The position numbers and the translations under genes were made by a program. Shown here piece after piece: positions 1-41,290 of a DNA stretch of 41,290 nucleotides. The stretch comes from a virus: UHGV virus genome UHGV-0387525; one strand, 5' to 3'. Position 1 is the stretch's first letter. Each line of letters begins with the position of its first letter. The notes under the pieces are model-generated. The model did no database searches. It saw nothing but the letters and a program-made list of their open reading frames with translations, and was not told the DNA's origin.

Positions 1-88
1 CTTCTACTCATGATATCTGGCAACAACCCTCTGTAGACCGCCATCCGGCGGTCTACAGAGGGTTGTTGCCAGATATCATGAGTAGAAG
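1..88. repeat. perfect inverted repeat, 42-bp arms (1-42 and 47-88) around centre ATCC
   Basis: 1-42 is the exact reverse complement of 47-88; 1-53 is also the exact reverse complement of 41225-41277, so the left arm may be an assembly foldback. Confidence 0.6.
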
Positions 89-306
89 AAGTATGCCAGT
101 TCCGCTTTTGAGCGCAGCCATTGTCTTGTTTTACAGGCTTTAAAAAGCCCATTCATCAATACCTTACCTGGCATTTTGCGCTTACCTGTTAAGTGAGTCT
201 GGATATAGTGACTCGTCGTTCCGGCTTCCTGTGCGAAGGCTTCACGCTCATCCGGAGTAAGTGCAAGCCAGTGCTTTTTGAAATCGAAATGTCCGTTATC
301 GCTCAT
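76..306 (-). CDS. small HTH DNA-binding protein, Cro/CII-like by position (first gene of minus-strand early arm)
   Basis: 76 aa; helix-turn-helix-like segment AQEAGTTSHYIQTHLTGKR; divergent from repressor candidate across an operator-bearing intergenic region. Confidence 0.5.
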   Translation of the reverse strand: MSDNGHFDFKKHWLALTPDEREAFAQEAGTTSHYIQTHLTGKRKMPGKVLMNGLFKACKTRQWLRSKAELAYFFYS

Positions 307-373
307 AGCTATTGCCTGATATTTATTTCAGATAATAAATATTCACCCATAAGGTAACAAAAATCAAGGATAG

Positions 374-388
374 TTACCTATGAGGTGC
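374..388. promoter_or_regulatory. variant operator site TTACC-TATGA-GGTGC
   Basis: left half matches the repeated palindrome, right half degenerate; in divergent promoter region 307-460. Confidence 0.35.
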
Positions 389-390
389 AT

Positions 391-405
391 TTACCTGTTG
401 GGTAA
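391..405. promoter_or_regulatory. operator-like palindrome TTACC-N5-GGTAA
   Basis: ttacctgttgggtaa; between divergent genes 76..306 and 461..1045. Confidence 0.6.
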
Positions 406-460
406 TATTGCTTTAAATTGAATCATCTACTGATTCATATATGAGGCGATTTTCCAGAAA

Positions 461-1045
461 ATGAAAAGTATCCAGGACGTCCGCAGGCAAAATCTCAACG
501 ACTTGATCGACCGTGAATTCAATGGTGTTCAGACGCGGATGGCAGAAAAACTTGGAACTCAGGCAAATCTGGTAAACCGCTGGGCTCTTGGCAAGAAGGT
601 TATCGGCGACCAGGTTGCACGAAAAATTGAAGCGGCCGCCAATAAACCCCGTAACTGGCTTGATATTGATCGTTCGCTTTCTCAGGAGGGTTTTCAGCCT
701 GTCGGCCCGAGCGATATAGGTCAGCTGGCGGCTCACAACCTGGAACGCTGGATGAGCGAAAGCCGCGACCTTTCAACACAGGGAAAACTTCACCGCGCAT
801 CCGGCGTCGCCCAGGTGACAATCAGCCGCCTGTTAAACAATGAGGTCAGCGTTTCCATTTCCACCCTGGAGAATGTTGCATCCGCATTCGGGCGTCACGG
901 ATATGAACTACTGATTCACCCGCACGACCCTGCGACTATCAACTATGACCGCTCACGCTACGCATTGTTACCCGAAACCGAGAAAGCAAAGATCGAAAGT
1001 TACATTGAATTTGTCATCAACCAGAACGAAAAAAGCAAACAATAA
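461..1045 (+). CDS. tandem-HTH transcriptional regulator; candidate non-cleavable immunity repressor
   Basis: 194 aa with two XRE-like HTH segments (RMAEKLGTQANLVNRWALGKK and ASGVAQVTISRLLNNEVSVSI); no S24 peptidase-like motif seen; monocistronic, followed by intrinsic terminator; weak RBS. Confidence 0.5.
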   Translation: MKSIQDVRRQNLNDLIDREFNGVQTRMAEKLGTQANLVNRWALGKKVIGDQVARKIEAAANKPRNWLDIDRSLSQEGFQPVGPSDIGQLAAHNLERWMSESRDLSTQGKLHRASGVAQVTISRLLNNEVSVSISTLENVASAFGRHGYELLIHPHDPATINYDRSRYALLPETEKAKIESYIEFVINQNEKSKQ

Positions 1046-1066
1046 AACTATAGTTTTCAGTAAGTA

Positions 1067-1090
1067 AGCCGCCTCATGGCGGCTTTTTTA
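1067..1090 (+). terminator. rho-independent terminator
   Basis: stem agccgcc/ggcggct, loop tcat, then TTTTT. Confidence 0.7.
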
Positions 1091-1102: not shown

Positions 1103-1117
1103 TTACCTTACGGGTAA
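1103..1117. promoter_or_regulatory. operator-like palindrome TTACC-N5-GGTAA
   Basis: ttaccttacgggtaa; preceded by TTGCCA -35-like hexamer at 1091-1096. Confidence 0.6.
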
Positions 1118-1164
1118 TTTTTTTAACTCATATCTATTGACACCAAACCAAATAAGCATAATTA

Positions 1165-1179
1165 TTACCCCAACGGTAA
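1165..1179. promoter_or_regulatory. operator-like palindrome TTACC-N5-GGTAA at a promoter
   Basis: ttaccccaacggtaa; TTGACA at 1137-1142 upstream; site overlaps the predicted -10/+1. Confidence 0.6.
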
Positions 1180-4288: not shown

Positions 4289-4931
4289 TAAATACACACT
4301 AATCTATGCAGATCCACCCTGGGTATACCGGGACAAAGCCGCAGATGGTAATCGCGGTGCCGGTTTTAAATATCCGGTTATGAGTGTGCTGGATATCTGC
4401 CGCCTTCCTGTGTGGGATTTGGCCGATGAAAACTGTCTGTTGGCCATGTGGTGGGTGCCAACACAACCACTCGAAGCACTAAAAGTTGTTGAAGCCTGGG
4501 GATTCCGTCTGATGACGATGAAGGGCTTCACGTGGATAAAATGTGGTAGTCGACAACCAGATAAACTGGTTATGGGTATGGGACACATGACTCGCGCCAA
4601 TAGTGAAGATTGCCTGTTTGCGGTAAAGGGAAAACTACCTACGCGCATTAATGCAGGGATCGTTCAGTCATTTACCGCACCGCGGCTTGAGCATTCAAGA
4701 AAGCCAGATATCGTTCGTGAAAAACTTGTGCAATTATTAGGCGATGTTTCTCGCATTGAACTGTTCGCCAGCCAGACGTCTCATGGTTTCGATGTTTGGG
4801 GTAATCAGTGCGAAGACCCGGCAGTGCAACTACATCCTGGATACGCGTTGGATATTGGCGGATTAACAAATGCATTCAGCAATGCTCCGCTGTCACCAAC
4901 AGACAACCAGGGGCGGGAGCGTGCAGCATGA
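4281..4931 (+). CDS. MT-A70-family N6-adenine DNA methyltransferase
   Basis: DPPW motif ([10 protein letters not shown]); GGGGTGG RBS before ATG 4281; stop overlaps next start (ATGA). Confidence 0.8.
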
Positions 4932-5587
4932 ACCTATATCAACGCATCAATGGCGCTGACTGGTGCAATATCTTCGTCGTCGGCGATCTGCATGGGTGCT
5001 ACACACTGCTGATGAACGAACTCGACAAAGTTTCATTCGACCCGGCGCGCGATTTGCTTATTTCCGTTGGTGACCTTGTTGACCGCGGCGCTGAAAACGT
5101 CGAATGCCTGGATTTGATTACTATGCCGTGGTTCCGAGCTGTTCGTGGCAACCATGAGCACATGATGATTGATGGCTTATCAGAGCGTGGAAACGTCAAT
5201 CACTGGCTGCTTAATGGCGGTGGCTGGTTCTTTAATCTCGATTACGACAAAGAAATTCTGGCTAAAGCTCTTGCCCATAAAGCAGATGAACTTCCGTTAA
5301 TCATCGAACTGGTGAGCAAAGATAAAAAATATGTCATCTGCCACGCCGATTATCCTTGTGACGAATACGAGTTTGGAAAGCCAGTTGATCATCAGCAGGT
5401 AATCTGGAACCGCGAACGAATCAGCAACTCACAAGACGGGATCGTGAAAGAAATCAAAGGCGCGGACATGTTCATCTTTGGTCATACGCCAGCAGTGAAA
5501 CCACTCAAGTTTGCCAACCAGATGTATATCGATACCGGCGCAGTGTTCTGCGGAAATCTGACGCTTACCAAAGTCCAGGAAGGATAG
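4928..5587 (+). CDS. Ser/Thr protein phosphatase, lambda-phosphatase/PrpA-like
   Basis: metallophosphatase motifs GDLHG, GDLVDRG, GNHE; in-frame start at ATG 4928. Confidence 0.85.
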
Positions 5588-6888: not shown

Positions 6889-6903
6889 ATACCTTTAAGG
6901 TAA
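6889..6903. promoter_or_regulatory. operator-like palindrome ATACC-N5-GGTAA upstream of int
   Basis: atacctttaaggtaa; flanked by inverted copies of ATACCGTCA. Confidence 0.5.
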
Positions 6904-12388: not shown

Positions 12389-12492
12389 GTTAAATCTCCA
12401 GATAGTCGCAGCACCCGTTGCGCCGCATATCTGGTTATTCTATTACCTAAAAAACCATATATGGATAAAAAGACTATAAATACCAATAGATA

Positions 12493-12507
12493 TTACCTTT
12501 CGGGTAA
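12493..12507. promoter_or_regulatory. operator-like palindrome TTACC-N5-GGTAA
   Basis: ttacctttcgggtaa upstream of gene 12584..12841. Confidence 0.6.
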
Positions 12508-12544: not shown

Positions 12545-12564
12545 TACTGTATAAACATACAGTT
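12545..12564. promoter_or_regulatory. LexA (SOS) box
   Basis: TACTGTATAAACATACAGTT: CTGT-N8-ACAG, 17/20 match to TACTGTATATATATACAGTA. Confidence 0.7.
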
Positions 12565-12583: not shown

Positions 12584-12841
12584 ATGCAGCAGTATCACTA
12601 TCCACTGGAAGACGGATTTACCGAAAGGATTCACACGCCGGGAGGCGTCAGGTCACTGGTGGAGGGATCGCACTTGATGAAATTACTCCGGGATCTCGAT
12701 AAGGATGGATTTAATGTCGATGGCCCACTTGCCGAACTGACTGCACTGATTAACTACGTCACCAGCTCACAGATGTCTATGCAGGATCTGCAAACACATC
12801 TCGACTATTGTGCCGAACAATTACGAAAACAAACCCGGTAA
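12584..12841 (+). CDS. small antirepressor-like protein (Tum-like), paralogous to C-terminus of Ant
   Basis: 85 aa; GGAGAAG RBS before ATG 12584; LMKLLRDLDKDGFNVDGPLAELTAL...MQDLQTHLDY aligns by eye with LMNLLNQLQEDGHDVSGAAAELTTM...LRDIQTHAEY at the end of 13990..14685. Confidence 0.55.
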   Translation: MQQYHYPLEDGFTERIHTPGGVRSLVEGSHLMKLLRDLDKDGFNVDGPLAELTALINYVTSSQMSMQDLQTHLDYCAEQLRKQTR

Positions 12842-12847
12842 ATTTAA

Positions 12848-12865
12848 AGGCCGCAAGAGCGGCCT
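12848..12865. terminator. bidirectional hairpin between convergent genes
   Basis: stem aggccgc/gcggcct, loop aaga; T-rich on both sides. Confidence 0.45.
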
Positions 12866-13592
12866 ATCGTTTCGCTTTGTGCTCGTCCCAGCACGTTTTG
12901 CACCATGCCATTAAGCCGTCCGCATTTTGATTATTAGGGTAAAAGCTGGTCCGTTTTCTGCGGACATTACAAATTGGGCACCACTTCATATGGCGTGTAT
13001 TCTTTGGGCCATCGAGACACCTTGCACACCACTTAGTCAATCCATCTGGATTTTTTGACGATTTCCGGAATTTGTCATATGGAAGGTTTATTCTGCATCG
13101 CAAACACTGCTTGCGGCCACTTGAAACTCTGTTAGCTGATTCTTCTTTTGGCGGCGATACAGAAGGTATTCTTGCTGGCTCTGATACTGCCTGAGGTGCT
13201 TTATTAGATGACTGAGACGATATGTCATCACCAGGGAATCTTCCATGATATGCCGGACGCGTTGACACTCCAGGTGGAAGCTCAGCTGTAAACGGCTTTG
13301 GCTGAATCAGTTGCCTCTCTTTTGCTAACTCCTGCTGTTTATAATATGTCTGGATTACCGCACTATCATAAGCAGGAGGTGCGGAAATATTAGGCGCATT
13401 ACCTCCAGTTTTTTGAAACTGAGTAGAGGTGTGTTCTATCACCTGTGTACGATTAATCGTTATCTCCCCATCTTCGGTCTTTATCGTTTTGTTATGATTA
13501 ACGACCGTACGATCAGAGATCTTAGTCTTGTTCTGGTTGATAACGTAAATAATCACCGCAACCACACCAACAACTATCCAGAAAACTTCCAT
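12864..13592 (-). CDS. membrane-anchored protein with tandem Cys-rich (zinc-ribbon-like) repeats
   Basis: 242 aa; N-terminal TM helix; two copies of C..C..N.DGL..WC..C pattern near C-terminus. Confidence 0.45.
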   Translation of the reverse strand: MEVFWIVVGVVAVIIYVINQNKTKISDRTVVNHNKTIKTEDGEITINRTQVIEHTSTQFQKTGGNAPNISAPPAYDSAVIQTYYKQQELAKERQLIQPKPFTAELPPGVSTRPAYHGRFPGDDISSQSSNKAPQAVSEPARIPSVSPPKEESANRVSSGRKQCLRCRINLPYDKFRKSSKNPDGLTKWCARCLDGPKNTRHMKWCPICNVRRKRTSFYPNNQNADGLMAWCKTCWDEHKAKR

Positions 13593-13612: not shown

Positions 13613-13627
13613 TTACCTTAAAGGTAA
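13613..13627. promoter_or_regulatory. operator-like palindrome TTACC-N5-GGTAA
   Basis: ttaccttaaaggtaa, 21 bp upstream of the minus-strand start at 13592. Confidence 0.6.
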
Positions 13628-13705
13628 TATCTTGCTTTCAGGTGATCAAGCGTTAAACGCAATCAACCAAATACGGTTGATTTTAATATTTCTTCGCGTT
13701 TATCA

Positions 13706-13720
13706 TTACCTTTGCGGTAA
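13706..13720. promoter_or_regulatory. operator-like palindrome overlapping promoter -10
   Basis: ttacctttgcggtaa; TTGATT (13677-13682), 18-nt spacer, TATCAT (13701-13706). Confidence 0.6.
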
Positions 13721-13989
13721 ATTTACATCGCACTCCTCTTGTGCCATAGTAATCGGGCACTGGCAAAATCCAGTGCCGGGATTGGCGTCCCGGATTACTA
13801 AAAGGCGCATTCACCGCGCAAGCGGTTTTTTTATGCGTATAGCACGGCCACATTCGTATTATGGTGGGCTGTGTGGGGGCACCGAAAGGTGCGCCGGGTC
13901 CTTTTAGCCGGTTACGCCAACCCTGCACAGTTCACCACCAACCGATTGGCGTCGGTAGTGGTGATTAACCAGACTAAAAGGTAACCACT
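13721..13989 (+). ncRNA. candidate structured leader / small RNA upstream of ant
   Basis: no credible ORF; hairpins at 13757-13778 and 13776-13793; terminator-like hairpin accgc-gcaa-gcggt + T7 at 13813-13832; decoy SD-like actaaaagg 13797-13805; anti-SD ccttttag 13900-13907. Confidence 0.35.
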
Positions 13990-14685
13990 ATGACAGCTAC
14001 AAAAAGCACGTCCATTTTTTCTTTCGAATCCCAAGCCGATATACGGGTAATCGTCATTAATGGTGAGCCATGGTTTATCGCTTCAGATGTTTGTCGGGCT
14101 ATAGGCATAGCAAACCATCGAGATGCTGTTCGAAAACTTGATGATGATGAGAAGGGCGTCGCTTCAACCGACACCCCTGGCGGTGAGCAAGAATCGATCA
14201 TCATCTCCGAGTCAGGCCTCTACACACTGATCCTCCGCTGCCGCGACGCAGTGACACCAGGCACTATCCCCTACCGCTTTCGCAAATGGGTTACAGGTGA
14301 GGTTCTTCCTCAGATCCGCCGCACCGGAAGTTACATTAAAAACTCGCTCCCGCAGGAAGAACGCATAAAGATGGTTGCCGACCAGGTAGCCAACGCCACA
14401 GCATCAGCAGTAATGCAGGCGATGAAGATAGAGAACAAAACCTACAGCGCCCCACTGAAGCCCGGCTACCGCAGCCTGATTCATTCTCCGTCTGGTGTTC
14501 TCGGCCTGACGGAGAACTCACTGCTGATGAATTTGCTGAACCAGTTGCAGGAAGACGGGCACGATGTATCGGGCGCGGCGGCGGAGCTGACAACCATGTT
14601 TTGCTACATCGTTGGTGTGAGTAAATGCCTGCGTGATATCCAGACTCACGCGGAGTACATCAACGACAAAGCAGGATTCTTCTGA
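13990..14685 (+). CDS. ant: antirepressor with N-terminal Bro-N domain
   Basis: 231 aa; Bro-N-like N-terminus (IRVIVINGEPWFIASDVCRAIGI...ESGLYTLILRCR); C-terminal segment paralogous to 12584..12841. Confidence 0.75.
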   Translation: MTATKSTSIFSFESQADIRVIVINGEPWFIASDVCRAIGIANHRDAVRKLDDDEKGVASTDTPGGEQESIIISESGLYTLILRCRDAVTPGTIPYRFRKWVTGEVLPQIRRTGSYIKNSLPQEERIKMVADQVANATASAVMQAMKIENKTYSAPLKPGYRSLIHSPSGVLGLTENSLLMNLLNQLQEDGHDVSGAAAELTTMFCYIVGVSKCLRDIQTHAEYINDKAGFF

Positions 14686-14757
14686 CGGGCGGCGGCACAG
14701 GGATGTGCCTTTAAATAATTCTGTACAGATTGCAGACCGGGGGTGAATAGCGTACTA

Positions 14758-14772
14758 TTACCTTAAAGGTAA
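14758..14772. promoter_or_regulatory. operator-like palindrome overlapping promoter
   Basis: ttaccttaaaggtaa; TTGCAG 14730-14735, 17-nt spacer, TACTAT 14753-14758. Confidence 0.6.
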
Positions 14773-14798: not shown

Positions 14799-15008
14799 AT
14801 GGGATTTTGGTTCGCTCGTACAAAAACGAGGGATAATGCACCCAGCCCTCAGGCAAAAAATACAGAAGTTCCGGCGTCAGCGCAGGTTAACAAGCGTGGT
14901 GGTGTGTATATCTCATCACAGCAAATTTCTGAGCTTCCTGAGGTTAAGGAGATGCGTCGTCTCGCTGCTGCAATCGTTAAACAGGATCTTGCCACTGTAA
15001 GGAAATAG
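14799..15008 (+). CDS. small hypothetical protein
   Basis: 69 aa; GAGGAGG RBS before ATG 14799. Confidence 0.5.
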   Translation: MGFWFARTKTRDNAPSPQAKNTEVPASAQVNKRGGVYISSQQISELPEVKEMRRLAAAIVKQDLATVRK

Positions 15009-15871
15009 TGTTGTTAGCTCTTCTAATTATCCCCATTCTGGTTAGTGGTTATATTATGATAACCGCTAACCAGTATCATTATTTCCGTTTATACCGACAT
15101 GAAGGCCAGCTTCTTTATATGAAAGTAGCTGCATTAGGTACATATTGCCTTGTTGCTTCTGTAATAATTGCCACATTTATAAAATATAAATATCCTGATT
15201 TTCACCTAGTTCACGATATGGTGGAAACTTTTAATGTAACGTCAAAACCAGAAACAGATAGAATTTACATGTGGCTACTTCTTCTGTCAGTCACATCAAT
15301 TTGCTTCTCTTTGTGTTATGTATCTTTTGTTTGGCTAAAAGATCTTCTTTTAGGTTGTTTTTATAAACGTGATATTTATGACAAAATATCAGAGGCAATG
15401 AAAGCTAGGGTATTGCGAAAAACGTACTCCCAGGGTTCTTTAGATTTGCTATTGCTTGATGCAATCGAATCAGATCCTAAGAAACCAATGTTAATTACTT
15501 TATCATCAAATAAAGTATACGTTGGAATAATAAATGGTTCTGGTGAGCCAACGGAAAATCAAGGGCCACACCAACACATATCTTTTGTTCCTTTAATGTC
15601 AGGGTACAGAAACAAAGAAAATTTATCTGTTACATTTACAAACGCTTACCCAGGTGAAATCCAAATTAAGCGCAGTGCTGCGATAAAAGGGATAAGCAAA
15701 AAGAAAGTTCAAGGTCTAGAAATTATGGTATCTATAGACGAAATAAGTCATATATCATGGTTTGACTTTGAAGTATATAAGGCAACAAATAACAAAGTAG
15801 AAACAAAGGGTCATGTTGTTAATGTGACCAAAAATGGTCGCAACATATACTACAGAAGTGGCAGGAAATAA
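15008..15871 (+). CDS. polytopic membrane protein of unknown function (accessory gene)
   Basis: 287 aa; about three N-terminal TM helices then soluble domain; AT-rich; GTG start overlapping upstream stop, alternative ATG 15056. Confidence 0.5.
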   Translation: MLLALLIIPILVSGYIMITANQYHYFRLYRHEGQLLYMKVAALGTYCLVASVIIATFIKYKYPDFHLVHDMVETFNVTSKPETDRIYMWLLLLSVTSICFSLCYVSFVWLKDLLLGCFYKRDIYDKISEAMKARVLRKTYSQGSLDLLLLDAIESDPKKPMLITLSSNKVYVGIINGSGEPTENQGPHQHISFVPLMSGYRNKENLSVTFTNAYPGEIQIKRSAAIKGISKKKVQGLEIMVSIDEISHISWFDFEVYKATNNKVETKGHVVNVTKNGRNIYYRSGRK

Positions 15872-15895
15872 ATTTTACGCAGTTTAGGTGGCTTA

Positions 15896-16400
15896 TATGG
15901 ATAATACTATCTTAGGCGCATTGATAGGTGCTGTTATTGCTATAGTTTCCACTTATATAAATGCAGGACAAGGATACAAAAACAGCATAAGATTAGAGCG
16001 ACAAAAAATATTAAGGGATAAACGCGAGCAATTATTTATAAATTGTATACTTACTAAAAAAGTCATAGATTCAAGCACAATTACCATTCTCAATTTCGTA
16101 AAAAATGCCAGATACCACTCTGATAGTAAATTTGACGTATCAAGAGCGAATCCGTTGCAAACGATGGAAATGCTAATAAACATATACCTTCCTGAGTATA
16201 AAAAAGACTTACAAGAACTCAATAATGCGTATCAAGAATTTCACAAATACTACTCTCAATATACATGTGCACATACCTTCAAAAATATGCCTGATAATGA
16301 GAAGTCGAGGTTTATTGAGGAGGCTGATTTTTATGCAAAAAAGATATATGGCAAACTTAATGATATTAAGGACAAGATATCATTAAACTCAATAGTATAA
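15896..16400 (+). CDS. single-pass membrane protein of unknown function (accessory gene)
   Basis: N-terminal TM helix ILGALIGAVIAIVSTYI; AGGTGG RBS 5 nt before ATG 15896; AT-rich. Confidence 0.5.
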
Positions 16401-32397: not shown

Positions 32398-32487
32398 ATC
32401 AATGACTCCGTACGCAATTAAATTATTACCAATTTAACCACATATGATTTATTTATCGTAGGTGGTTGACATTTAACGCACAAATTA

Positions 32488-32502
32488 TTACCTTTCAGGT
32501 AA
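32488..32502. promoter_or_regulatory. operator-like palindrome with upstream TTGACA
   Basis: ttacctttcaggtaa; TTGACA at 32466-32471. Confidence 0.6.
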
Positions 32503-32824: not shown

Positions 32825-32901
32825 GTGGCATTAGCTCAGTTGGACAGAGCAACCGCCTTCTAAGCGGTTGGTCGCAGGTTCGAATCCTGCATGCCACGCC
32901 A
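32825..32901 (+). tRNA. tRNA-Arg (anticodon UCU)
   Basis: manual cloverleaf: acceptor GTGGCAT/ATGCCAC, D-arm GCTC/GAGC, anticodon stem ACCGC/GCGGT with loop CTTCTAA, T-arm GCAGG-TTCGAAT-CCTGC, discriminator G, encoded CCA. Confidence 0.9.
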
Positions 32902-33062
32902 GAATCACGCCTAAGGACCGTGATGCCAGAAGTTCCAGGTGCTTGGCGGTGATAGTTTCCCTTGAAGGACTATCACCGCCCTTTTTACAGCAGGACGCCA
33001 TTGCGATGACTTCATGCTGTAAACCCGTACAGCCACGGAAGGCATAACTCATTGCTTCCAGT

Positions 33063-33098: not shown

Positions 33099-33518
33099 AT
33101 GAAGACAATTGATATGTTGGCTAAGTATCTAAATGAATGGCCATTAAAATATTCTCGTATCGTTCAGGCTGAAGACTGCATTTTTTATGGCGTTTTTGCT
33201 GGTAATGAAATGCATTACGAAGTAATTCAGAGTGAGGGACTGGCCGGGTTAACTCTTAGCGAAGACCATGGTACTAGCGTTACGTTCCATGACTGGATAA
33301 CAGCACAACGTTCTGAAATGGAAAAAGGCGATGTTTTTGATATTTCTCGCGCTGTTTACGCTAAAGCAAAAAGTGATAATGATTACATGAGCGAACACTT
33401 ATACAACATGAAGTTACAATGCCTGCATGCGGCGCTTATTCAGAATGGGCACTTCGATAAAACAAGTGCCATCAATATTGCGGAAGCCATCAACGCTGGA
33501 TTTAATGCCATTAAGTAA
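33099..33518 (+). CDS. hypothetical accessory protein
   Basis: 139 aa; AAGGTGA RBS before ATG 33099; opposite strand to flanking structural genes. Confidence 0.5.
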   Translation: MKTIDMLAKYLNEWPLKYSRIVQAEDCIFYGVFAGNEMHYEVIQSEGLAGLTLSEDHGTSVTFHDWITAQRSEMEKGDVFDISRAVYAKAKSDNDYMSEHLYNMKLQCLHAALIQNGHFDKTSAINIAEAINAGFNAIK

Positions 33519-35084: not shown

Positions 35085-35677
35085 TGATTACCATCCTGAC
35101 GTTCTTTGAGTCGCTTCCTGGCTGCTGCTATGCGATCAGCAATTGTCACATTCACATTAACATCCAGGCGTTCTTTGAATGCGTTGACGTCGACGTGCTT
35201 ACCAATCAGTTCGAGGTTCTTCACCTTGTCAGGCCATTTAATTTTTTTGAGGATTGTCTCTATCGAATCCTCGTTCATGTTCATGATGGTCGATGACAGA
35301 TCAAAGCCGCTAAGCGTAGTGCGCCAGATTTTCGGCCACTCGCGGATTGGCTTAAGGCTCCCATCGTCGTTGAGGATGTCGATCACGTCCATCTGGTCGA
35401 TCTCCACCAGGCGCATGAGAACGTAATCAGCACTGACGCGCATTCGTTTGTTGCGCTCCTCCATCAACTCGGCAATCCGTTTCTGAATGCGTTCATCGCG
35501 CATCATGACACTGGCTTTAACTGCCGCTGTATTTGGGGAGAATCCTGCGTTAATCGCAGCCTGAGTCTGATTTTCAGGCGTTTTGATGTATGACTGGCAA
35601 TAAGCCTCCTGCATTGCTGTTAGTGGCTTAAATTGCGTTGATTTGCGTTTATAGGTTTTAGGTTCAGCAGGCATCAT
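35081..35677 (-). CDS. terminase small subunit
   Basis: start moved to MMPAEP (ATG 35677, GGTGG RBS); AAINAGFSPNTAAVKASVMMRDERIQKRI resembles small-terminase DNA-binding region; overlaps terL start. Confidence 0.65.
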   Translation of the reverse strand: MMPAEPKTYKRKSTQFKPLTAMQEAYCQSYIKTPENQTQAAINAGFSPNTAAVKASVMMRDERIQKRIAELMEERNKRMRVSADYVLMRLVEIDQMDVIDILNDDGSLKPIREWPKIWRTTLSGFDLSSTIMNMNEDSIETILKKIKWPDKVKNLELIGKHVDVNAFKERLDVNVNVTIADRIAAARKRLKERQDGNQ

Positions 35678-35684
35678 AACCACC

Positions 35685-35716
35685 GTGGTAATAGTTACCG
35701 TTGTGGTAATAGTACC
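35685..35716. promoter_or_regulatory. two direct repeats GTGGTAATAGT(T)ACC upstream of terS
   Basis: 35685-35699 and 35703-35716; contain GGTAA..TTACC half-sites in reversed order. Confidence 0.4.
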
Positions 35717-39193: not shown

Positions 39194-39208
39194 TTACCCC
39201 TGAGGTAA
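39194..39208. promoter_or_regulatory. operator-like palindrome overlapping start region of gene 38846..39190
   Basis: ttacccctgaggtaa directly upstream of the minus-strand ATG. Confidence 0.6.
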
Positions 39209-39255
39209 TTAAAAACCACATAAGACACTAAATCAATAGATTTTAGAATATTTTA

Positions 39256-39270
39256 TTACCCAGTAGGTAA
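39256..39270. promoter_or_regulatory. operator-like palindrome
   Basis: ttacccagtaggtaa; on minus strand upstream of TTGATT-N17-TTTAAT promoter-like element. Confidence 0.6.
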
Positions 39271-39307: not shown

Positions 39308-40090
39308 TTACTTGATAAATCCTGCCGCCTTTCCCCGCCTGTATTCCTCCATCAGCCACTGCGCCGGTGTTATTCCCCCAAGGGTGGCGGCGTTAGGCAT
39401 GCACCCGAAACTTCGCCCTGGTGGATGGTAAACGTCTCTCCCTGTGTCCGGAGGTGTACTCATGGGTTCTGGCTTTGCCTGTATGCTGATCACCGGATCG
39501 GGTATCTGCTGTCCGGAAGCCACCTTTTTCGCCCAATCATCGAGCAGCCTGCGCGCGTGTTTCTCAACCTCAATCTCGCTAAGCTGGCGCTGATACATTG
39601 CACGGCGGGTATCACATACGACCCAGTACATAACCGGATGTCGCCACGGGAATCTTTCGGGACCACCAGGATATAAACTTTTTTCCTTGCTGTACCGGTG
39701 AAACTCCGCCATCACATCGTCAATGGTGACGCCAAGAACCATCTTGCTGTCTTTGCACCACTTGATGAATTGCCCAGGCGACGGCCAGAACGGAGATTCA
39801 CTGGCGCGGGCGTGGCGCATACCAGCGTTAACCTGTTCCATTGTTGTGATCCCATTCTCCAGAAACGCAAGCATCCATTGTTTTCGAAATTCGTTTAGCT
39901 TTCCTTGCTCGCTGATAGCAGCGATGCTGCCTGGAAATGCAGCCTGTAACTGGACAAACATTTCGTTGAAAATTCTTGCAACCTGCTCCTTCTTTGCCCT
40001 TTCATCGTCAGCAGAAGCAACCGCCGTCGAGTGGTCATGCCCACCACGAAAGCGATCGTACTCATTAAGAAGTTCTGGAGTTGATTTCAT
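39308..40090 (-). CDS. replication protein P-like helicase loader
   Basis: RKQWMLAFLENGITTMEQVNAGMRHAR...PSPGQFIKWC closely matches lambda P as recalled; start at ATG 40090 with GAGGTG RBS. Confidence 0.85.
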   Translation of the reverse strand: MKSTPELLNEYDRFRGGHDHSTAVASADDERAKKEQVARIFNEMFVQLQAAFPGSIAAISEQGKLNEFRKQWMLAFLENGITTMEQVNAGMRHARASESPFWPSPGQFIKWCKDSKMVLGVTIDDVMAEFHRYSKEKSLYPGGPERFPWRHPVMYWVVCDTRRAMYQRQLSEIEVEKHARRLLDDWAKKVASGQQIPDPVISIQAKPEPMSTPPDTGRDVYHPPGRSFGCMPNAATLGGITPAQWLMEEYRRGKAAGFIK

Positions 40091-40898
40091 CCCACACCTC
40101 ATCTATCCAGTCAGTGTTATGCCAGTCAAGGCTCTTTCTGACTTCACCTGATTTCTGTCTACAGAACTGGATGCGCCTTGCCAGCTTCTGCTCCCACTGT
40201 GCCTGATGGTATGCCTTACCCTCAGCCATCCAGTAAATTCTGAACTCTGCAAGTTCCTGTGCCGTTGGCAGACTGTCCAGGTAGATTCCCTGCAATGAGC
40301 TTTTCCGAAGAAAGTCATCTGATGGCTGCCATTGTTCATGCATGACAAATTTACCTAATTGCCCTGGCCCACCAGGAGGAACAAAGTTATTCATCACGGC
40401 GTTGTTTGCGACGGGGTCATGAGGCACAGAATCCCCGGTTTTTGTCCTGCTCTCCCTCTCTTGGTTAAATGACTGGTTATATGACTGGTTCTGGATCCCG
40501 TTTTTGGGATCATTCAACATCCCGTTTTTGGGATCATTCAACATCCCGTTTTTGGGTATATTCCCGTTTTCGGTAACATTACCGTTTTCGGGTTCATTGC
40601 CCCCCTCCCGGTTGCCTTTAATGTTCCCGTTTTTGGTTATATTAAGAGAGAAAACCCGCACTCTTTTTGTCGCTCCCTTTCTCTCTCCGGTATCTGAAAT
40701 AAGCCCCATTTTCATGAGCGATATAAGCCCGGCCTGCACGGTTTTTTTATTCAGGCAAGTGTCTTTAACGAGGCGTTCTATGCTGGGGTAGCAGAGGTTA
40801 TATTCATCGGCTCTGTCAGCCATCGAGAGCAGTATGAGCTTTAATGATGAGCTACCTGGATCTGTCTCCCAGGCCCAATCTGTTGCATGTCTGCTCAT
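40065..40898 (-). CDS. replication initiator, lambda-O-like, with internal ori iterons
   Basis: upstream of and overlapping P-like gene; repetitive peptide region (NGNI/NGML NDPK) coincides with nucleotide iterons. Confidence 0.6.
   Translation of the reverse strand: MSRHATDWAWETDPGSSSLKLILLSMADRADEYNLCYPSIERLVKDTCLNKKTVQAGLISLMKMGLISDTGERKGATKRVRVFSLNITKNGNIKGNREGGNEPENGNVTENGNIPKNGMLNDPKNGMLNDPKNGIQNQSYNQSFNQERESRTKTGDSVPHDPVANNAVMNNFVPPGGPGQLGKFVMHEQWQPSDDFLRKSSLQGIYLDSLPTAQELAEFRIYWMAEGKAYHQAQWEQKLARRIQFCRQKSGEVRKSLDWHNTDWIDEVWDEINSRTS
40471..40650. repeat. origin-like iteron array inside O-like gene
   Basis: gactggtt x2, then about seven copies of CCCGTTTT(T)GG at 18-24-bp spacing (two perfect 24-bp tandem copies at 40495-40542). 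Confidence 0.65.
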
Positions 40899-41194: not shown

Positions 41195-41209
41195 TTACCT
41201 TTGAGGTAC
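41195..41209. promoter_or_regulatory. operator-like palindrome TTACC-N5-GGTAC
   Basis: ttacctttgaggtac between cro-like terminator and zinc-finger gene. Confidence 0.5.
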
Positions 41210-41220
41210 GAATAGATATG

Positions 41221-41243
41221 AAAAGACCGCCGGATGGCGGTCT
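41221..41243 (-). terminator. terminator after cro-like gene (across the circular junction)
   Basis: 8-bp stem agaccgcc/ggcggtct with 4-nt loop; on minus strand followed by TTTTC. Confidence 0.5.
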
Positions 41244-41290
41244 ACAGAGGGTTGTTGCCAGATATCATGAGTAGAAGAAGTATGCCAGTT
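41224..41290. repeat. terminal direct repeat of 35-101, identical except the 4-nt hairpin loop is inverted (GGAT vs ATCC)
   Basis: direct comparison of the two window ends; 41236-41290 equals 47-101 exactly. Confidence 0.85.

What the first reader, a model, noticed from the sequence alone, without database searches (positions are those of the whole stretch)
76..1090. Immunity switch with a tandem-HTH repressor lacking a recognisable autocleavage domain
Genes 76..306 (Cro-like) and 461..1045 are divergent across a 150-bp region carrying operator palindromes. The 461..1045 product has two HTH-like segments and no peptidase-like C-terminus that I can see; the gene is monocistronic and has a poor RBS. 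Together with the two antirepressor genes this points to antirepressor-mediated rather than RecA-mediated induction.
Basis: partly seen in the sequence, partly recalled or inferred. Interest (0 to 1): 0.55.

Follow-up and report, generated by a model that had tools for sequence, protein, structure and literature searches.

The report
Known phage repressor–antirepressor immunity switch
This is the immunity switch of a common E. coli phiV10/epsilon15-type prophage, whose non-cleavable repressor is switched off by a small DNA-damage-induced antirepressor; the mechanism is already solved in the sister phage SPC32H, so the finding is correct but ordinary.

Summary
Genes 76..306 (-) and 461..1045 (+) diverge across 154 bp that carry three TTACC-N5-GGTAA palindromes. 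The 194-aa product has two HTH-type domains plus a C-terminal helix and no S24 peptidase. The gene ends at its own terminator and lacks a well-placed Shine-Dalgarno.

The window is a Uetakevirus genome. The protein is 99.5% identical to phiV10 p40 / vB_EcoP_ZX5 ORF21, which blocks lytic growth when overexpressed. It matches the SPC32H Rep over its full length (PDB 5D50/5D4Z).

The window encodes an 85-aa orthologue of SPC32H Ant (12584..12841) behind a conserved LexA box. A second Ant-domain protein fused to BRO-N (13990..14685) sits behind Rep operators and an isrK/C4 antisense-RNA module. Antirepressor-mediated induction is therefore supported. It still depends on RecA, through LexA cleavage.

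Fifteen sites with at most one mismatch, all non-coding, lie at about ten places in the genome, several in pairs 62 bp apart. The same layout is seen in SPC32H, Tyrion and BUCT711.

Verdict: already known, low interest. The dispersed operators and the dual antirepressor wiring are the only parts I could not find described.

The parts
76..306 (-). Cro-like gene (76 aa), first gene of the rightward early unit; orthologue of PhiV10p41 and SPC32H_042
   Evidence: ORF. PHROG 35 'transcriptional repressor', E 5.6e-13. No Pfam or PDB sequence hit. AF2 five-helix model, pLDDT 87. Best folds are the YdaS N-terminal domain and the 434 and P22 c2 DNA-binding domains, TM about 0.65 but E only 0.5. 76% identical to SPC32H_042.
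343..405 (.). Right operator cluster: TTACC-N5-GGTAA at 343-357, 374-388 and 391-405 (start-to-start spacings 31 and 17 bp)
   Evidence: Half-sites are invariant and the central 5 bp variable in the alignment with SPC32H, Tyrion and BUCT711.
332..367 (-). Rightward promoter for the Cro-like gene. The scan gives -35 TTGTTA 360-355 and -10 TATTAT 337-332. By eye, an alternative -35 is TTGATT 367-362, inside an invariant AAAAATCAA block. Operator 343-357 fills the spacer in either reading.
461..1045 (+). rep: 194-aa immunity repressor with an N-terminal HTH domain, a linker, a second HTH-like domain and a C-terminal tetramerisation/Ant-binding segment; no S24 peptidase
   Evidence: 5D50_A E 3.5e-42 over the full length and 5D4Z_A E 3.6e-20 for residues 89-190. 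Foldseek top hits are 5D50 and 5D4Z. Pfam gives HTH families only. 99.5% identical to phiV10 p40 and ZX5 ORF21. Functional test in PMC9782041.
1066..1093 (+). Intrinsic terminator ending the rep transcript
   Evidence: 8-bp stem with 6 GC pairs, T-run. Annotated as a terminator in phiV10.
1103..1179 (+). Leftward early promoter with two flanking operators: O 1103-1117, -35 TTGACA 1137-1142, -10 AATTAT 1160-1165, O 1165-1179 (operators 62 bp apart)
   Evidence: Conserved in four phages.
41220..41243 (-). Intrinsic terminator directly after the Cro-like gene, seen in its true form at the window end. The copy at the window start (about 36-53) lies inside a fold-back artefact.
   Evidence: Annotated as a terminator in phiV10.
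12493..12507 (.). Rep operator between the divergent tailspike and ant genes
   Evidence: Syntenic sites in SPC32H (20013), Tyrion (21776) and BUCT711 (16965).
12545..12563 (+). LexA box TACTGTATAAACATACAGT upstream of ant (17 of 20 matches to the consensus over 12545-12564)
   Evidence: Conserved in SPC32H and Tyrion, with a 1-mismatch version in BUCT711. SPC32N carries ACAG to AAAG here.
12584..12841 (+). ant (Ant1): 85-aa small antirepressor, orthologue of SPC32H Ant
   Evidence: 5D50_E E 4.1e-47. 88% identical to the SPC32H ant product. GGAG lies 8 nt upstream of the ATG. PHROG 450 is labelled 'unknown function'.
13613..13720 (+). Control region of the second antirepressor operon: operators 13613-13627 and 13706-13720 (93 bp apart) and promoter TTGATT-18-TATCAT at 13677-13706, whose last base is the first base of the downstream operator
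13757..13832 (+). isrK-type RNA element carrying copies of the two C4 target sequences (TTGGCGT 13782-88, CTAAAAGG 13798-805) and a terminator
   Evidence: Rfam RF01394, 77.9 bits. Complementarity.
13857..13942 (+). C4-type antisense RNA. Its CCUUUUAG (13900-07) and ACGCCAA (13914-20) are complementary to the ant2 leader and SD (13946-52, 13974-81).
   Evidence: Rfam RF01695, 77.7 bits. Complementarity; CTAAAAGG occurs only at these two places in the window.
13990..14685 (+). ant2: 231-aa BRO-N domain fused to an Ant-like C-terminal domain; identical to ZX5 ORF4
   Evidence: Bro-N E 2.3e-21. Residues 150-226 match 5D50_E, E 1e-13. 42% identical to Ant1. 100% identical to ZX5 'anti-repressor'. 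Overexpression data in PMC9782041.
39194..39270 (-). Operator pair 62 bp apart (39194-39208 and 39256-39270), between the replication gene P and the downstream early genes
   Evidence: Syntenic 62-bp pairs in SPC32H (35972/36034), Tyrion (37265/37327) and BUCT711 (4210/4272). A by-eye promoter TTGATT-17-TTTAAT on the - strand falls below the scan threshold.
35677..35709 (-). Two adjacent operators (18 bp apart) immediately upstream of the small-terminase start
   Evidence: Syntenic in SPC32H (12) and Tyrion (67/85).
32488..32502 (.). Operator between the tRNA/moron unit and the gene preceding portal
   Evidence: Syntenic in SPC32H 3175, Tyrion 3969 and BUCT711 34570.
14758..14772 (+). Operator upstream of the moron cluster 14799..16400
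   Evidence: Non-coding.
6889..6903 (.). One-mismatch operator upstream of integrase
   Evidence: The same one-mismatch site is present in SPC32H 26960, Tyrion 28568 and BUCT711 12620.
41195..41209 (-). One-mismatch operator just downstream of the cro terminator, ahead of the replication genes
   Evidence: Syntenic one-mismatch sites in Tyrion 35365 and BUCT711 6032.

Best explanation
The region is the primary immunity switch of a phiV10/epsilon15-type (Uetakevirus) temperate podophage. It works like the solved Rep/Ant system of Salmonella phage SPC32H.

Rep (461..1045) is made from a weak, poorly translated, monocistronic gene. By homology it binds as a tetramer to 15-bp TTACC-N5-GGTAA operators through its N-terminal HTH domain. 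One operator fills the spacer of the rightward promoter that drives the Cro-like gene. Two operators bracket the leftward early promoter. Further operators sit at about eight other transcription-unit starts, so Rep silences the prophage directly at many promoters.

Rep has no protease domain and is not cut by RecA*. Instead, DNA damage activates RecA and LexA cleaves itself. The LexA box at 12545-12563 is vacated and the 85-aa Ant (12584..12841) is made. Ant binds the C-terminal half of Rep, breaks the tetramer and releases the DNA.

A second Ant-domain protein (BRO-N fusion, 13990..14685) is itself behind Rep operators and is gated by a P1-type C4 antisense RNA. It probably reinforces derepression once Rep starts to fail.

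What is shown here: the homologies, the sites, their enrichment, synteny and conservation. What is shown in the literature for near-identical or homologous proteins: repression by Rep, antagonism by Ant, and the tetramer and its disassembly. What is inferred: operator occupancy at each site, looping between paired sites, and the feedback role of Ant2.
For: - Window identity: about 97% DNA identity to phiV10, ZX5 and TL-2011b.
- Rep matches 5D50_A over its full length, E 3.5e-42, and 5D4Z over the C-terminal half. Foldseek top hits are 5D50 and 5D4Z.
- No S24 domain in Rep or in 18 relatives, nor in the precomputed Pfam of 86 homologues.
- Ant1 matches 5D50_E, E 4e-47. The Ant2 C-terminus matches 5D50_E, E 1e-13.
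- Rep and Ant co-occur in essentially the same 35-37 phage records.
- The LexA box is conserved in four divergent phages. SPC32N has a point change inside it.
- Operators: 15 sites against 0.73 expected, all non-coding. The same motif is found at syntenic places in SPC32H (18 sites vs 0.52 expected), Tyrion (15 vs 0.51) and BUCT711 (13 vs 0.49). Half-sites are invariant while the spacers vary.
- PL, PR and the terminators.
- Function: ZX5 ORF21 overexpression gave 0 free phage and a 99.99% drop in endolysin transcript (99.97% for holin). ORF4 overexpression lowered prophage titre from 1e9 to 1e6 (PMC9782041).
- Mechanism of the SPC32H Rep tetramer and Ant tetramer: PMC9638917 and PMC9986798. 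LexA-controlled Ant: PMC7380047.
Against: - No experiment exists on this exact genome.
- Rep is only 44% identical to the solved SPC32H Rep, and 33% in the middle domain, so details of the Ant interface could differ.
- The rep promoter could not be assigned. Nothing reaches the scan threshold on the + strand of 307-460.
- Several of the promoters I read next to operators fall below the scan threshold.
- The role of the operator 40 bp upstream of the LexA box at ant is unclear. If it represses ant, LexA cleavage alone would not suffice.
- The primary SPC32H papers could not be read here, so parts of the mechanism rest on secondary citations and on my memory of the abstracts.
Confidence: 0.87

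Rival explanations
1. Classical lambda-type switch: Rep is inactivated by RecA*-stimulated self-cleavage, through a divergent or cryptic protease or cleavage site, and the Ant proteins are accessory.
For: The gene layout is lambda-like: rep, terminator, PL with operators, divergent PR with three operators. SOS involvement is indicated by the LexA box.
Against: No S24 domain by Pfam in this protein or in 18 relatives. The whole 194 aa is accounted for by two helical HTH-type domains plus a C-terminal helix. It matches a solved repressor with no protease fold. Reviews state that SPC32H-type repressors are inactivated by Ant and not cleaved.
Confidence: 0.03
2. The BRO-N fusion Ant2 (13990..14685), not the small LexA-controlled Ant1, is the main inducer. 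This is what the ZX5 study assumed. Induction would then respond chiefly to whatever relieves C4 RNA and Rep control, rather than to SOS.
For: Ant2 is identical to ZX5 ORF4, which reduced lysogeny when overexpressed. It carries an Ant-like domain. ZX5 lysogens induce spontaneously at a high level.
Against: Ant2 is absent from SPC32H, which still has a working Rep/Ant switch. Its promoter carries Rep operators and its SD is complementary to C4 RNA, so it should be off in a lysogen. Ant1 is the conserved partner, present in all Rep-bearing records, and it has the LexA box.
Confidence: 0.07
3. Both HTH domains of Rep read DNA (a true tandem-HTH repressor). Each monomer would contact two sites, and the dispersed and paired operators would reflect this rather than tetramer bridging.
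For: The second domain gives the stronger Pfam HTH_3 match (residues 106-147, E 1.2e-09). Operators often come in pairs.
Against: The operator is a simple two-fold palindrome. The homologous segment, 92-198 in SPC32H, was crystallised as the tetramerising, Ant-binding part (5D4Z; PMC9986798). The middle domain is the least conserved part (33%) while the operator half-sites are identical between the two phages.
Confidence: 0.05

Closest known systems
Rep/Ant antirepression system of Salmonella podophage SPC32H (Kim & Ryu 2013 J Virol; Kim et al. 2016 PNAS; PDB 5D50, 5D4Z)
   Same: Same genus, gene order and Rep architecture. Ant is 88% identical. The LexA box sits in front of ant. The operator half-sites are identical, with the same 17-bp and 62-bp operator spacings at OR and OL.
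   Different: Rep is only 44% identical. This phage adds a second, BRO-N-fused Ant with an isrK/C4 RNA module that SPC32H lacks. SPC32H has a third operator downstream of PL that is missing here.
Escherichia phages vB_EcoP_ZX5 and phiV10 (ORF21/p40 repressor, ORF4 anti-repressor; PMC9782041)
   Same: Rep is 99.5% identical, and Ant1 and Ant2 are 100% identical to ZX5. About 97% DNA identity across the switch. The prophage sits at guaA.
   Different: Essentially none for the switch. The ZX5 paper did not recognise the small LexA-controlled Ant (annotated as hypothetical). It does not describe the operators beyond a generic statement.
LexA-controlled antirepressors Tum of coliphage 186 and GfoA/GfhA of the Gifsy prophages (PMC3121763; reviewed in PMC7380047)
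   Same: Same logic: a non-cleavable repressor, an SOS signal relayed by LexA to a small antirepressor, and protein-protein inactivation.
   Different: Unrelated repressor and antirepressor folds. From my memory of the Kim & Ryu abstract, SPC32H-type Ant is described as structurally distinct from the earlier antirepressors.
Phage P1/P7: C1 repressor with many dispersed operators, plus the ImmI region (c4 antisense RNA - icd - ant)
   Same: One repressor acts on operators scattered over the genome. A secondary immunity module places an antirepressor gene behind a C4 RNA that pairs with two short sequences upstream and at the RBS. The P1 layout is from my own knowledge (Citron & Schuster 1990).
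   Different: Rep is unrelated to C1. No icd-like leader ORF was identified. The ant product is BRO-N plus an SPC32H-type Ant domain. The module's promoter is also under Rep control.
Lambda CI/Cro switch
   Same: Divergent repressor and Cro-like genes across a three-operator region. The repressor gene is followed by a terminator and then an operator-flanked PL. Repressor translation signals are weak.
   Different: No S24 autocleavage domain. The repressor is a tetramer with a p53-like tetramerisation element. There is a terminator right after the Cro-like gene, and operators lie outside OR and OL.

Membership tests
SPC32H-type Rep/Ant antirepression system | Repressor of about 195 aa homologous over its full length to SPC32H Rep (N-terminal HTH, C-terminal oligomerisation/Ant-binding part) | tested here: met
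   5D50_A E 3.5e-42, residues 1-190. Foldseek 5D50_A E 3.7e-10; 5D4Z target-normalised TM-score 0.75.
SPC32H-type Rep/Ant antirepression system | Small (about 86 aa) Ant homologous to SPC32H Ant encoded in the same genome | tested here: met
   12584..12841 matches 5D50_E, E 4.1e-47. Same position between tailspike and tail genes as in SPC32H.
SPC32H-type Rep/Ant antirepression system | LexA box at the ant promoter | tested here: met
   TACTGTATAAACATACAGT at 12545-12563, 17 of 20 to the consensus. Conserved in the genus. The SPC32N variant is mutated at the ACAG arm. LexA binding itself was not tested.
SPC32H-type Rep/Ant antirepression system | Rep stays intact during SOS; Ant binds Rep and releases it from DNA | not testable with these tools
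   Only literature on SPC32H is available. This needs a western blot, pull-down and EMSA.
SPC32H-type Rep/Ant antirepression system | Same palindromic operators at the rep/cro and PL regions | tested here: met
   ATTACC-N5-GGTAAT in SPC32H at the equivalent places. Window sites; alignments.
LexA/CI-type autocleavable repressors (Peptidase S24) | C-terminal S24 peptidase domain with a Ser/Lys dyad and an Ala-Gly type cleavage site | tested here: not met
   No PF00717 hit at E up to 1. None in 18 relatives or in the precomputed Pfam of 86 homologues. The model is all-helical. No S24 fold among the Foldseek hits.
Cro/CI-type small HTH lytic regulators (for 76..306) | Small lambda-repressor-like HTH fold | tested here: inconclusive
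   Five-helix AF2 model, pLDDT 87. Top folds are YdaS-NTD, 434 and P22 c2 DNA-binding domains, TM 0.53-0.66, but the best E is 0.5. PHROG 35 E 5.6e-13. No Pfam hit.
Cro/CI-type small HTH lytic regulators (for 76..306) | First gene of the early promoter, divergent from the repressor gene and sharing its operators | tested here: met
   Position and promoter/operator overlap. Binding to the operators was not tested.
P1/P7 ImmI-type secondary immunity (c4 RNA - ant) | C4 antisense RNA gene upstream of an antirepressor gene on the same strand | tested here: met
   RF01695, 77.7 bits at 13857-13942, and RF01394 isrK at 13757-13832, upstream of 13990..14685.
P1/P7 ImmI-type secondary immunity (c4 RNA - ant) | Two short C4 segments complementary to sites upstream and at the RBS of the downstream gene | tested here: met
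   CCUUUUAG and ACGCCAA pair with 13798-805 / 13782-88 and with 13974-81 / 13946-52. The latter pair covers the ant2 SD.
P1/P7 ImmI-type secondary immunity (c4 RNA - ant) | icd-like leader ORF coupling translation to ant transcription; P1-type Ant protein | not tested
   No leader ORF was looked for systematically. The Ant here is BRO-N plus an SPC32H-type Ant domain.

The most novel reading that the evidence does not exclude
Rep may be a genome-wide silencer rather than a two-promoter switch. About ten conserved operator loci, several as pairs spaced 62 or 93 bp apart, could each be bridged by one Rep tetramer whose two DNA-binding pairs come from different dimers, giving short DNA loops. Induction would then run through a two-stage antirepressor relay. 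SOS-released Ant1 starts it. The Rep-repressed, C4-RNA-gated Ant2 then locks it in as positive feedback. I could not find either feature described for this phage group in the papers I could reach.
Probability: 0.35. Interest if true: 0.4.

Novelty: already known. Interest (0 to 1): 0.15.

Why it matters
The switch itself adds nothing new. The same protein was tested in ZX5, and the mechanism was solved structurally in SPC32H.

Three practical points follow.
- This prophage module sits in about 10% of complete E. coli genomes (540 of 5,426).
- The small Ant that actually links it to the SOS response is still labelled 'hypothetical' or 'unknown function' in the records and in PHROGs. Annotation-based surveys will therefore misjudge how these prophages are induced.
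- The ZX5 study attributed antirepression to the BRO-N protein alone.

The dispersed, phase-spaced operators and the C4-gated second Ant give concrete, cheap hypotheses for anyone engineering phiV10-type reporter or therapeutic phages.

Tried and rejected
- I tried to read the primary papers (Kim & Ryu 2013, Kim et al. 2016, Kropinski et al. 2007). None is held. Statements about them therefore rest on secondary papers and on my memory of the abstracts.
- A de novo palindrome-enrichment script across four genomes failed because loci fetched by accession were not exported to /data. I replaced it with pattern searches per locus.
- I could not assign the rep promoter. No + strand hit reaches the scan threshold in 307-460. 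Candidates read by eye (TTTACC-18-TAAATT, or TTTAAA-17-TCATAT) are weak and only partly conserved.
- Promoters read by eye at 14727-14758 and on the - strand at 39209-39237 are not called by the scan. I keep them as suggestions only.
- A possible shared late-promoter motif upstream of the tailspike gene and of gene 4 was searched with a pattern that found nothing. The pattern was probably mis-spaced.
- The other two CTGT-N8-ACAG matches (28475 and 33017) have GC-rich centres. I did not pursue them as LexA boxes.
- PADLOC found nothing for the morons next to ant2.
- NCBIfam gave no informative hit for Rep, the Cro-like protein or the Ants.
- The 88-nt 'perfect palindrome' at the window start is rejected as biology. 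It is a fold-back at the terminator hairpin plus a 55-nt terminal overlap.
Full report
**What the window is.** The first 1.4 kb is about 97% identical to Escherichia phages phiV10, vB_EcoP_ZX5, TL-2011b and relatives (genus Uetakevirus, epsilon15-like podophages), and 77% identical to Enterobacter phage Tyrion. In phiV10, 461..1045 is p40, annotated 'putative transcriptional repressor, two helix-turn-helix motifs', and 76..306 is the hypothetical p41. The same module occurs at 95% identity or more in 540 of 5,426 complete E. coli genomes, as a prophage next to guaA. The window is a circular or terminally redundant assembly. Its last 55 nt repeat positions 47-101, and positions 1-46 are a reverse-complement fold-back of 47-88 around a terminator hairpin. 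The striking 88-nt palindrome at the window start is therefore an artefact.

**Check of the observation.** Both ORFs exist and diverge across 307..460, a 154-bp gap. The gap holds three copies of TTACC-N5-GGTAA, at 343-357 (1 mismatch), 374-388 (2 mismatches) and 391-405 (perfect).

- *Domains.* The 194-aa product has a YdaS/Cro-type HTH match at residues 21-61 and an HTH_3 match at 106-147, and nothing else. The AlphaFold model is all-helical, with domains at 4-59 and 85-151, a disordered linker at 72-84 and a C-terminal helix at 172-193.
- *No peptidase.* None of 18 family members, and none of 86 database homologues, carries a Peptidase_S24 domain.
- *Monocistronic.* The gene ends at an intrinsic terminator (1066-1085 plus a T-run), followed by an independent strong promoter, TTGACA-17-AATTAT at 1137-1165.
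- *Poor RBS.* The only GAGG upstream of the ATG is 14 nt away. The absence of a well-placed SD is shared by SPC32H, Tyrion and BUCT711.

**What it is.** The protein aligns end to end with the repressor of Salmonella phage SPC32H (PDB 5D50 chain A, E 3.5e-42), and residues 89-190 align with the crystallised C-terminal fragment 5D4Z. The structure model finds the same entries first. Overall identity is 44%: 54% in the N-terminal HTH domain, 33% in the middle domain and 54% in the C-terminal segment. Secondary literature describes SPC32H Rep as binding DNA as a tetramer. Its antirepressor Ant is also a tetramer. It binds two Rep dimers and breaks up the Rep tetramer (PMC9638917). The Rep C-terminus carries a p53-like tetramerisation element that also contacts Ant (PMC9986798). 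For the E. coli version there is direct evidence. ZX5 ORF21 differs by one residue. When overexpressed it abolished free phage and cut lysis-gene transcripts by 99.97-99.99% (PMC9782041).

**The first antirepressor, Ant1.** At 12584..12841 there is an 85-aa protein that matches SPC32H Ant (5D50 chain E, E 4e-47, 88% identity). Most records, including ZX5 and phiV10, annotate it as hypothetical, and PHROGs lists its family as 'unknown function'. Twenty bases upstream of its start lies TACTGTATAAACATACAGT, a 17/20 match to the LexA consensus. The box is conserved in SPC32H and Tyrion, and BUCT711 has a one-mismatch version, while the flanks diverge. SPC32N is the sister of SPC32H. From my memory of the Kim & Ryu 2013 abstract, it cannot keep lysogeny because Ant is made constitutively. 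In this region it differs from SPC32H by a single base, inside that box (ACAG to AAAG). A review states that in these Salmonella phages, LexA self-cleavage releases an Ant that inactivates the repressor by protein-protein contact (PMC7380047).

**The second antirepressor, Ant2.** The gene 13990..14685 encodes a BRO-N domain fused to an Ant-like C-terminal domain (E 1e-13 to 5D50_E; 42% identity to Ant1). It is identical to ZX5 ORF4, whose overexpression lowered lysogeny a thousand-fold. It is controlled differently from Ant1.

- Its promoter, TTGATT-18-TATCAT at 13677-13706, ends on the first base of an operator at 13706-13720. A second operator lies 93 bp upstream.
- Its leader holds Rfam isrK (13757-13832) and C4 antisense RNA (13857-13942) elements.
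- Two C4 segments are complementary to sequences inside isrK and, again, to the ant2 leader and Shine-Dalgarno. The 8-mer CTAAAAGG occurs only at those two places in the window.
- From my own knowledge of Citron & Schuster 1990, this is the layout of the phage P1/P7 ImmI region.

SPC32H lacks this module. Tyrion and several E. coli relatives have it.

**Operators beyond the switch.** The palindrome is not confined to the rep/cro gap. Fifteen sites with at most one mismatch occur in the window against 0.73 expected, and all lie in the roughly 8.5% of the window that is non-coding. Their positions are:

- two bracketing PL (1103 and 1165);
- upstream of integrase (6889);
- between tailspike and ant (12493);
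- at ant2 (13613 and 13706);
- before a moron cluster (14758);
- before the gene preceding portal (32488);
- two adjoining the small-terminase start (35677 and 35695);
- two after the replication genes (39194 and 39256);
- just past the cro terminator (41195).

The same motif is equally enriched, and sits at the same syntenic places, in SPC32H (18 sites vs 0.52 expected), Tyrion (15 vs 0.51) and BUCT711 (13 vs 0.49). In alignments the half-sites are invariant while the central five bases vary.

Start-to-start spacings within clusters are 17-18, 31, 62, 62 and 93 bp. The 62-bp pairs at PL and after gene P recur in all four phages. This suits a tetramer with two DNA-binding pairs and a tetramerisation element of a type linked to DNA looping. 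Looping itself is my inference. At PL and at the ant2 promoter, the last T of the -10 hexamer is the first T of the downstream operator.

**Mechanism.** In a lysogen, Rep is made at a low level from a weak, poorly translated, self-contained gene. It occupies the operator in the spacer of the rightward promoter, the two operators flanking PL and the dispersed sites, and so keeps every early and late unit off. DNA damage activates RecA and LexA cleaves itself. Ant1 is then made and strips Rep from DNA. Derepression also frees the ant2 operon, whose product probably reinforces the switch, subject to C4 RNA. Induction therefore bypasses Rep cleavage but is still RecA-dependent.

- *Shown here:* the homologies, motifs, statistics and conservation.
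- *Shown elsewhere for near-identical or homologous proteins:* repression, antagonism and quaternary structure.
- *Inferred:* occupancy of each site, looping and the Ant2 feedback.

**The Cro-like gene.** The 76-aa product has no Pfam or PDB sequence match, and its homologues form a narrow family, all annotated hypothetical. It does hit PHROG 35, 'transcriptional repressor'. A confident five-helix model (pLDDT 87) resembles the YdaS N-terminal domain and the 434 and P22 c2 DNA-binding domains, with TM about 0.65 but a best E-value of only 0.5. It is 76% identical to its SPC32H counterpart, far more conserved than Rep. It is followed at once by its own terminator. 'Cro-like' is reasonable by position and fold but remains untested.

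**Comparison and verdict.** This is a member of the SPC32H-type Rep/Ant system. Every sequence-level defining feature was tested and met, and the biochemical ones cannot be tested here. It fails the defining feature of LexA/CI-type autocleavable repressors. In logic it resembles 186 Tum and the Gifsy antirepressors, and in its dispersed operators and C4-gated second Ant it resembles P1. Interest is low. The parts I could not find described in the literature available to me are the genus-wide dispersed operator set with phased pairs and the two differently wired Ant genes. They are worth a short experimental follow-up but do not change the classification.

Noticed in passing
window 1-101 and 41236-41290: Bases 1-46 are the reverse complement of 47-88, with the 4-nt hairpin loop inverted, and the last 55 nt repeat 47-101. 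This looks like a fold-back plus a k-mer overlap of a circular assembly. The real genome is about 41.19 kb, and the 88-nt perfect palindrome is not biological.
   Followed up: yes
window 13757-13981: An isrK-type and a C4-type RNA lie upstream of the BRO-N antirepressor. C4 segments CCUUUUAG and ACGCCAA are complementary to paired sites in isrK and at the ant2 SD, which is a P1 ImmI-like arrangement. It is not mentioned in the ZX5 paper.
   Followed up: yes
L007 (SPC32N) versus L003 (SPC32H), aligned to window 12545-12563: SPC32N differs from SPC32H by one base in the ant upstream region, ACAG to AAAG in the LexA box. The window has the intact box.
   Followed up: yes
window 12584..12841: The small Ant family is PHROG 450, 'unknown function'. 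It is annotated hypothetical in phiV10, ZX5, TL-2011b, epsilon15 and Tyrion, an annotation gap for a structurally characterised protein.
   Followed up: partly
window 40490-40650 (inside 40065..40898, - strand): Tandem repeats of about 23 bp (catcccgtttttgggatcattcaa and variants) lie inside the DnaT/HTH_36 replication-initiator gene. They are probably origin iterons, as in the lambda O gene.
   Followed up: no
window 12438-12466 and 32420-32447: A similar block (ATT ATTACC n AA..AACC n (A)TATG) lies upstream of the tailspike gene and of the gene preceding portal. The first copy is conserved in SPC32H, Tyrion and BUCT711. It may be an activator-dependent late-promoter motif containing an operator half-site. 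My pattern search for further copies found none.
   Followed up: partly
window 32825-32898: A tRNA gene with anticodon UCU in the Rfam alignment (annotated tRNA-Arg in relatives) lies between the terminase and portal regions, on the strand opposite the late genes. It is followed by a Gp49-family moron (33099..33518) preceded by a weak CTGT-N8-ACAG match at 33017.
   Followed up: no
window 461..1045 versus 76..306 and 12584..12841: Divergence from SPC32H is uneven. Rep is 44% identical, but the Cro-like protein is 76%, Ant is 88% and the operator half-sites are identical. Cross-immunity or cross-induction between E. coli and Salmonella members may be possible.
   Followed up: partly
window 14799..16400 and 12864..13592: A moron cluster sits next to the antirepressor genes. 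It includes two conserved proteins of unknown function (PHROG 3630 and 36918) behind a Rep operator, and a 242-aa membrane-anchored protein with zinc-finger/endonuclease VII-like repeats. No PADLOC defence hit.
   Followed up: partly
window 4808..5587: An extra ORF between the methylase and integrase genes has a metallophosphoesterase-like sequence (GDLHG, GDLVDRG, GNHE motifs, read by eye). No domain search was run on it and it was not compared with phiV10.
   Followed up: no
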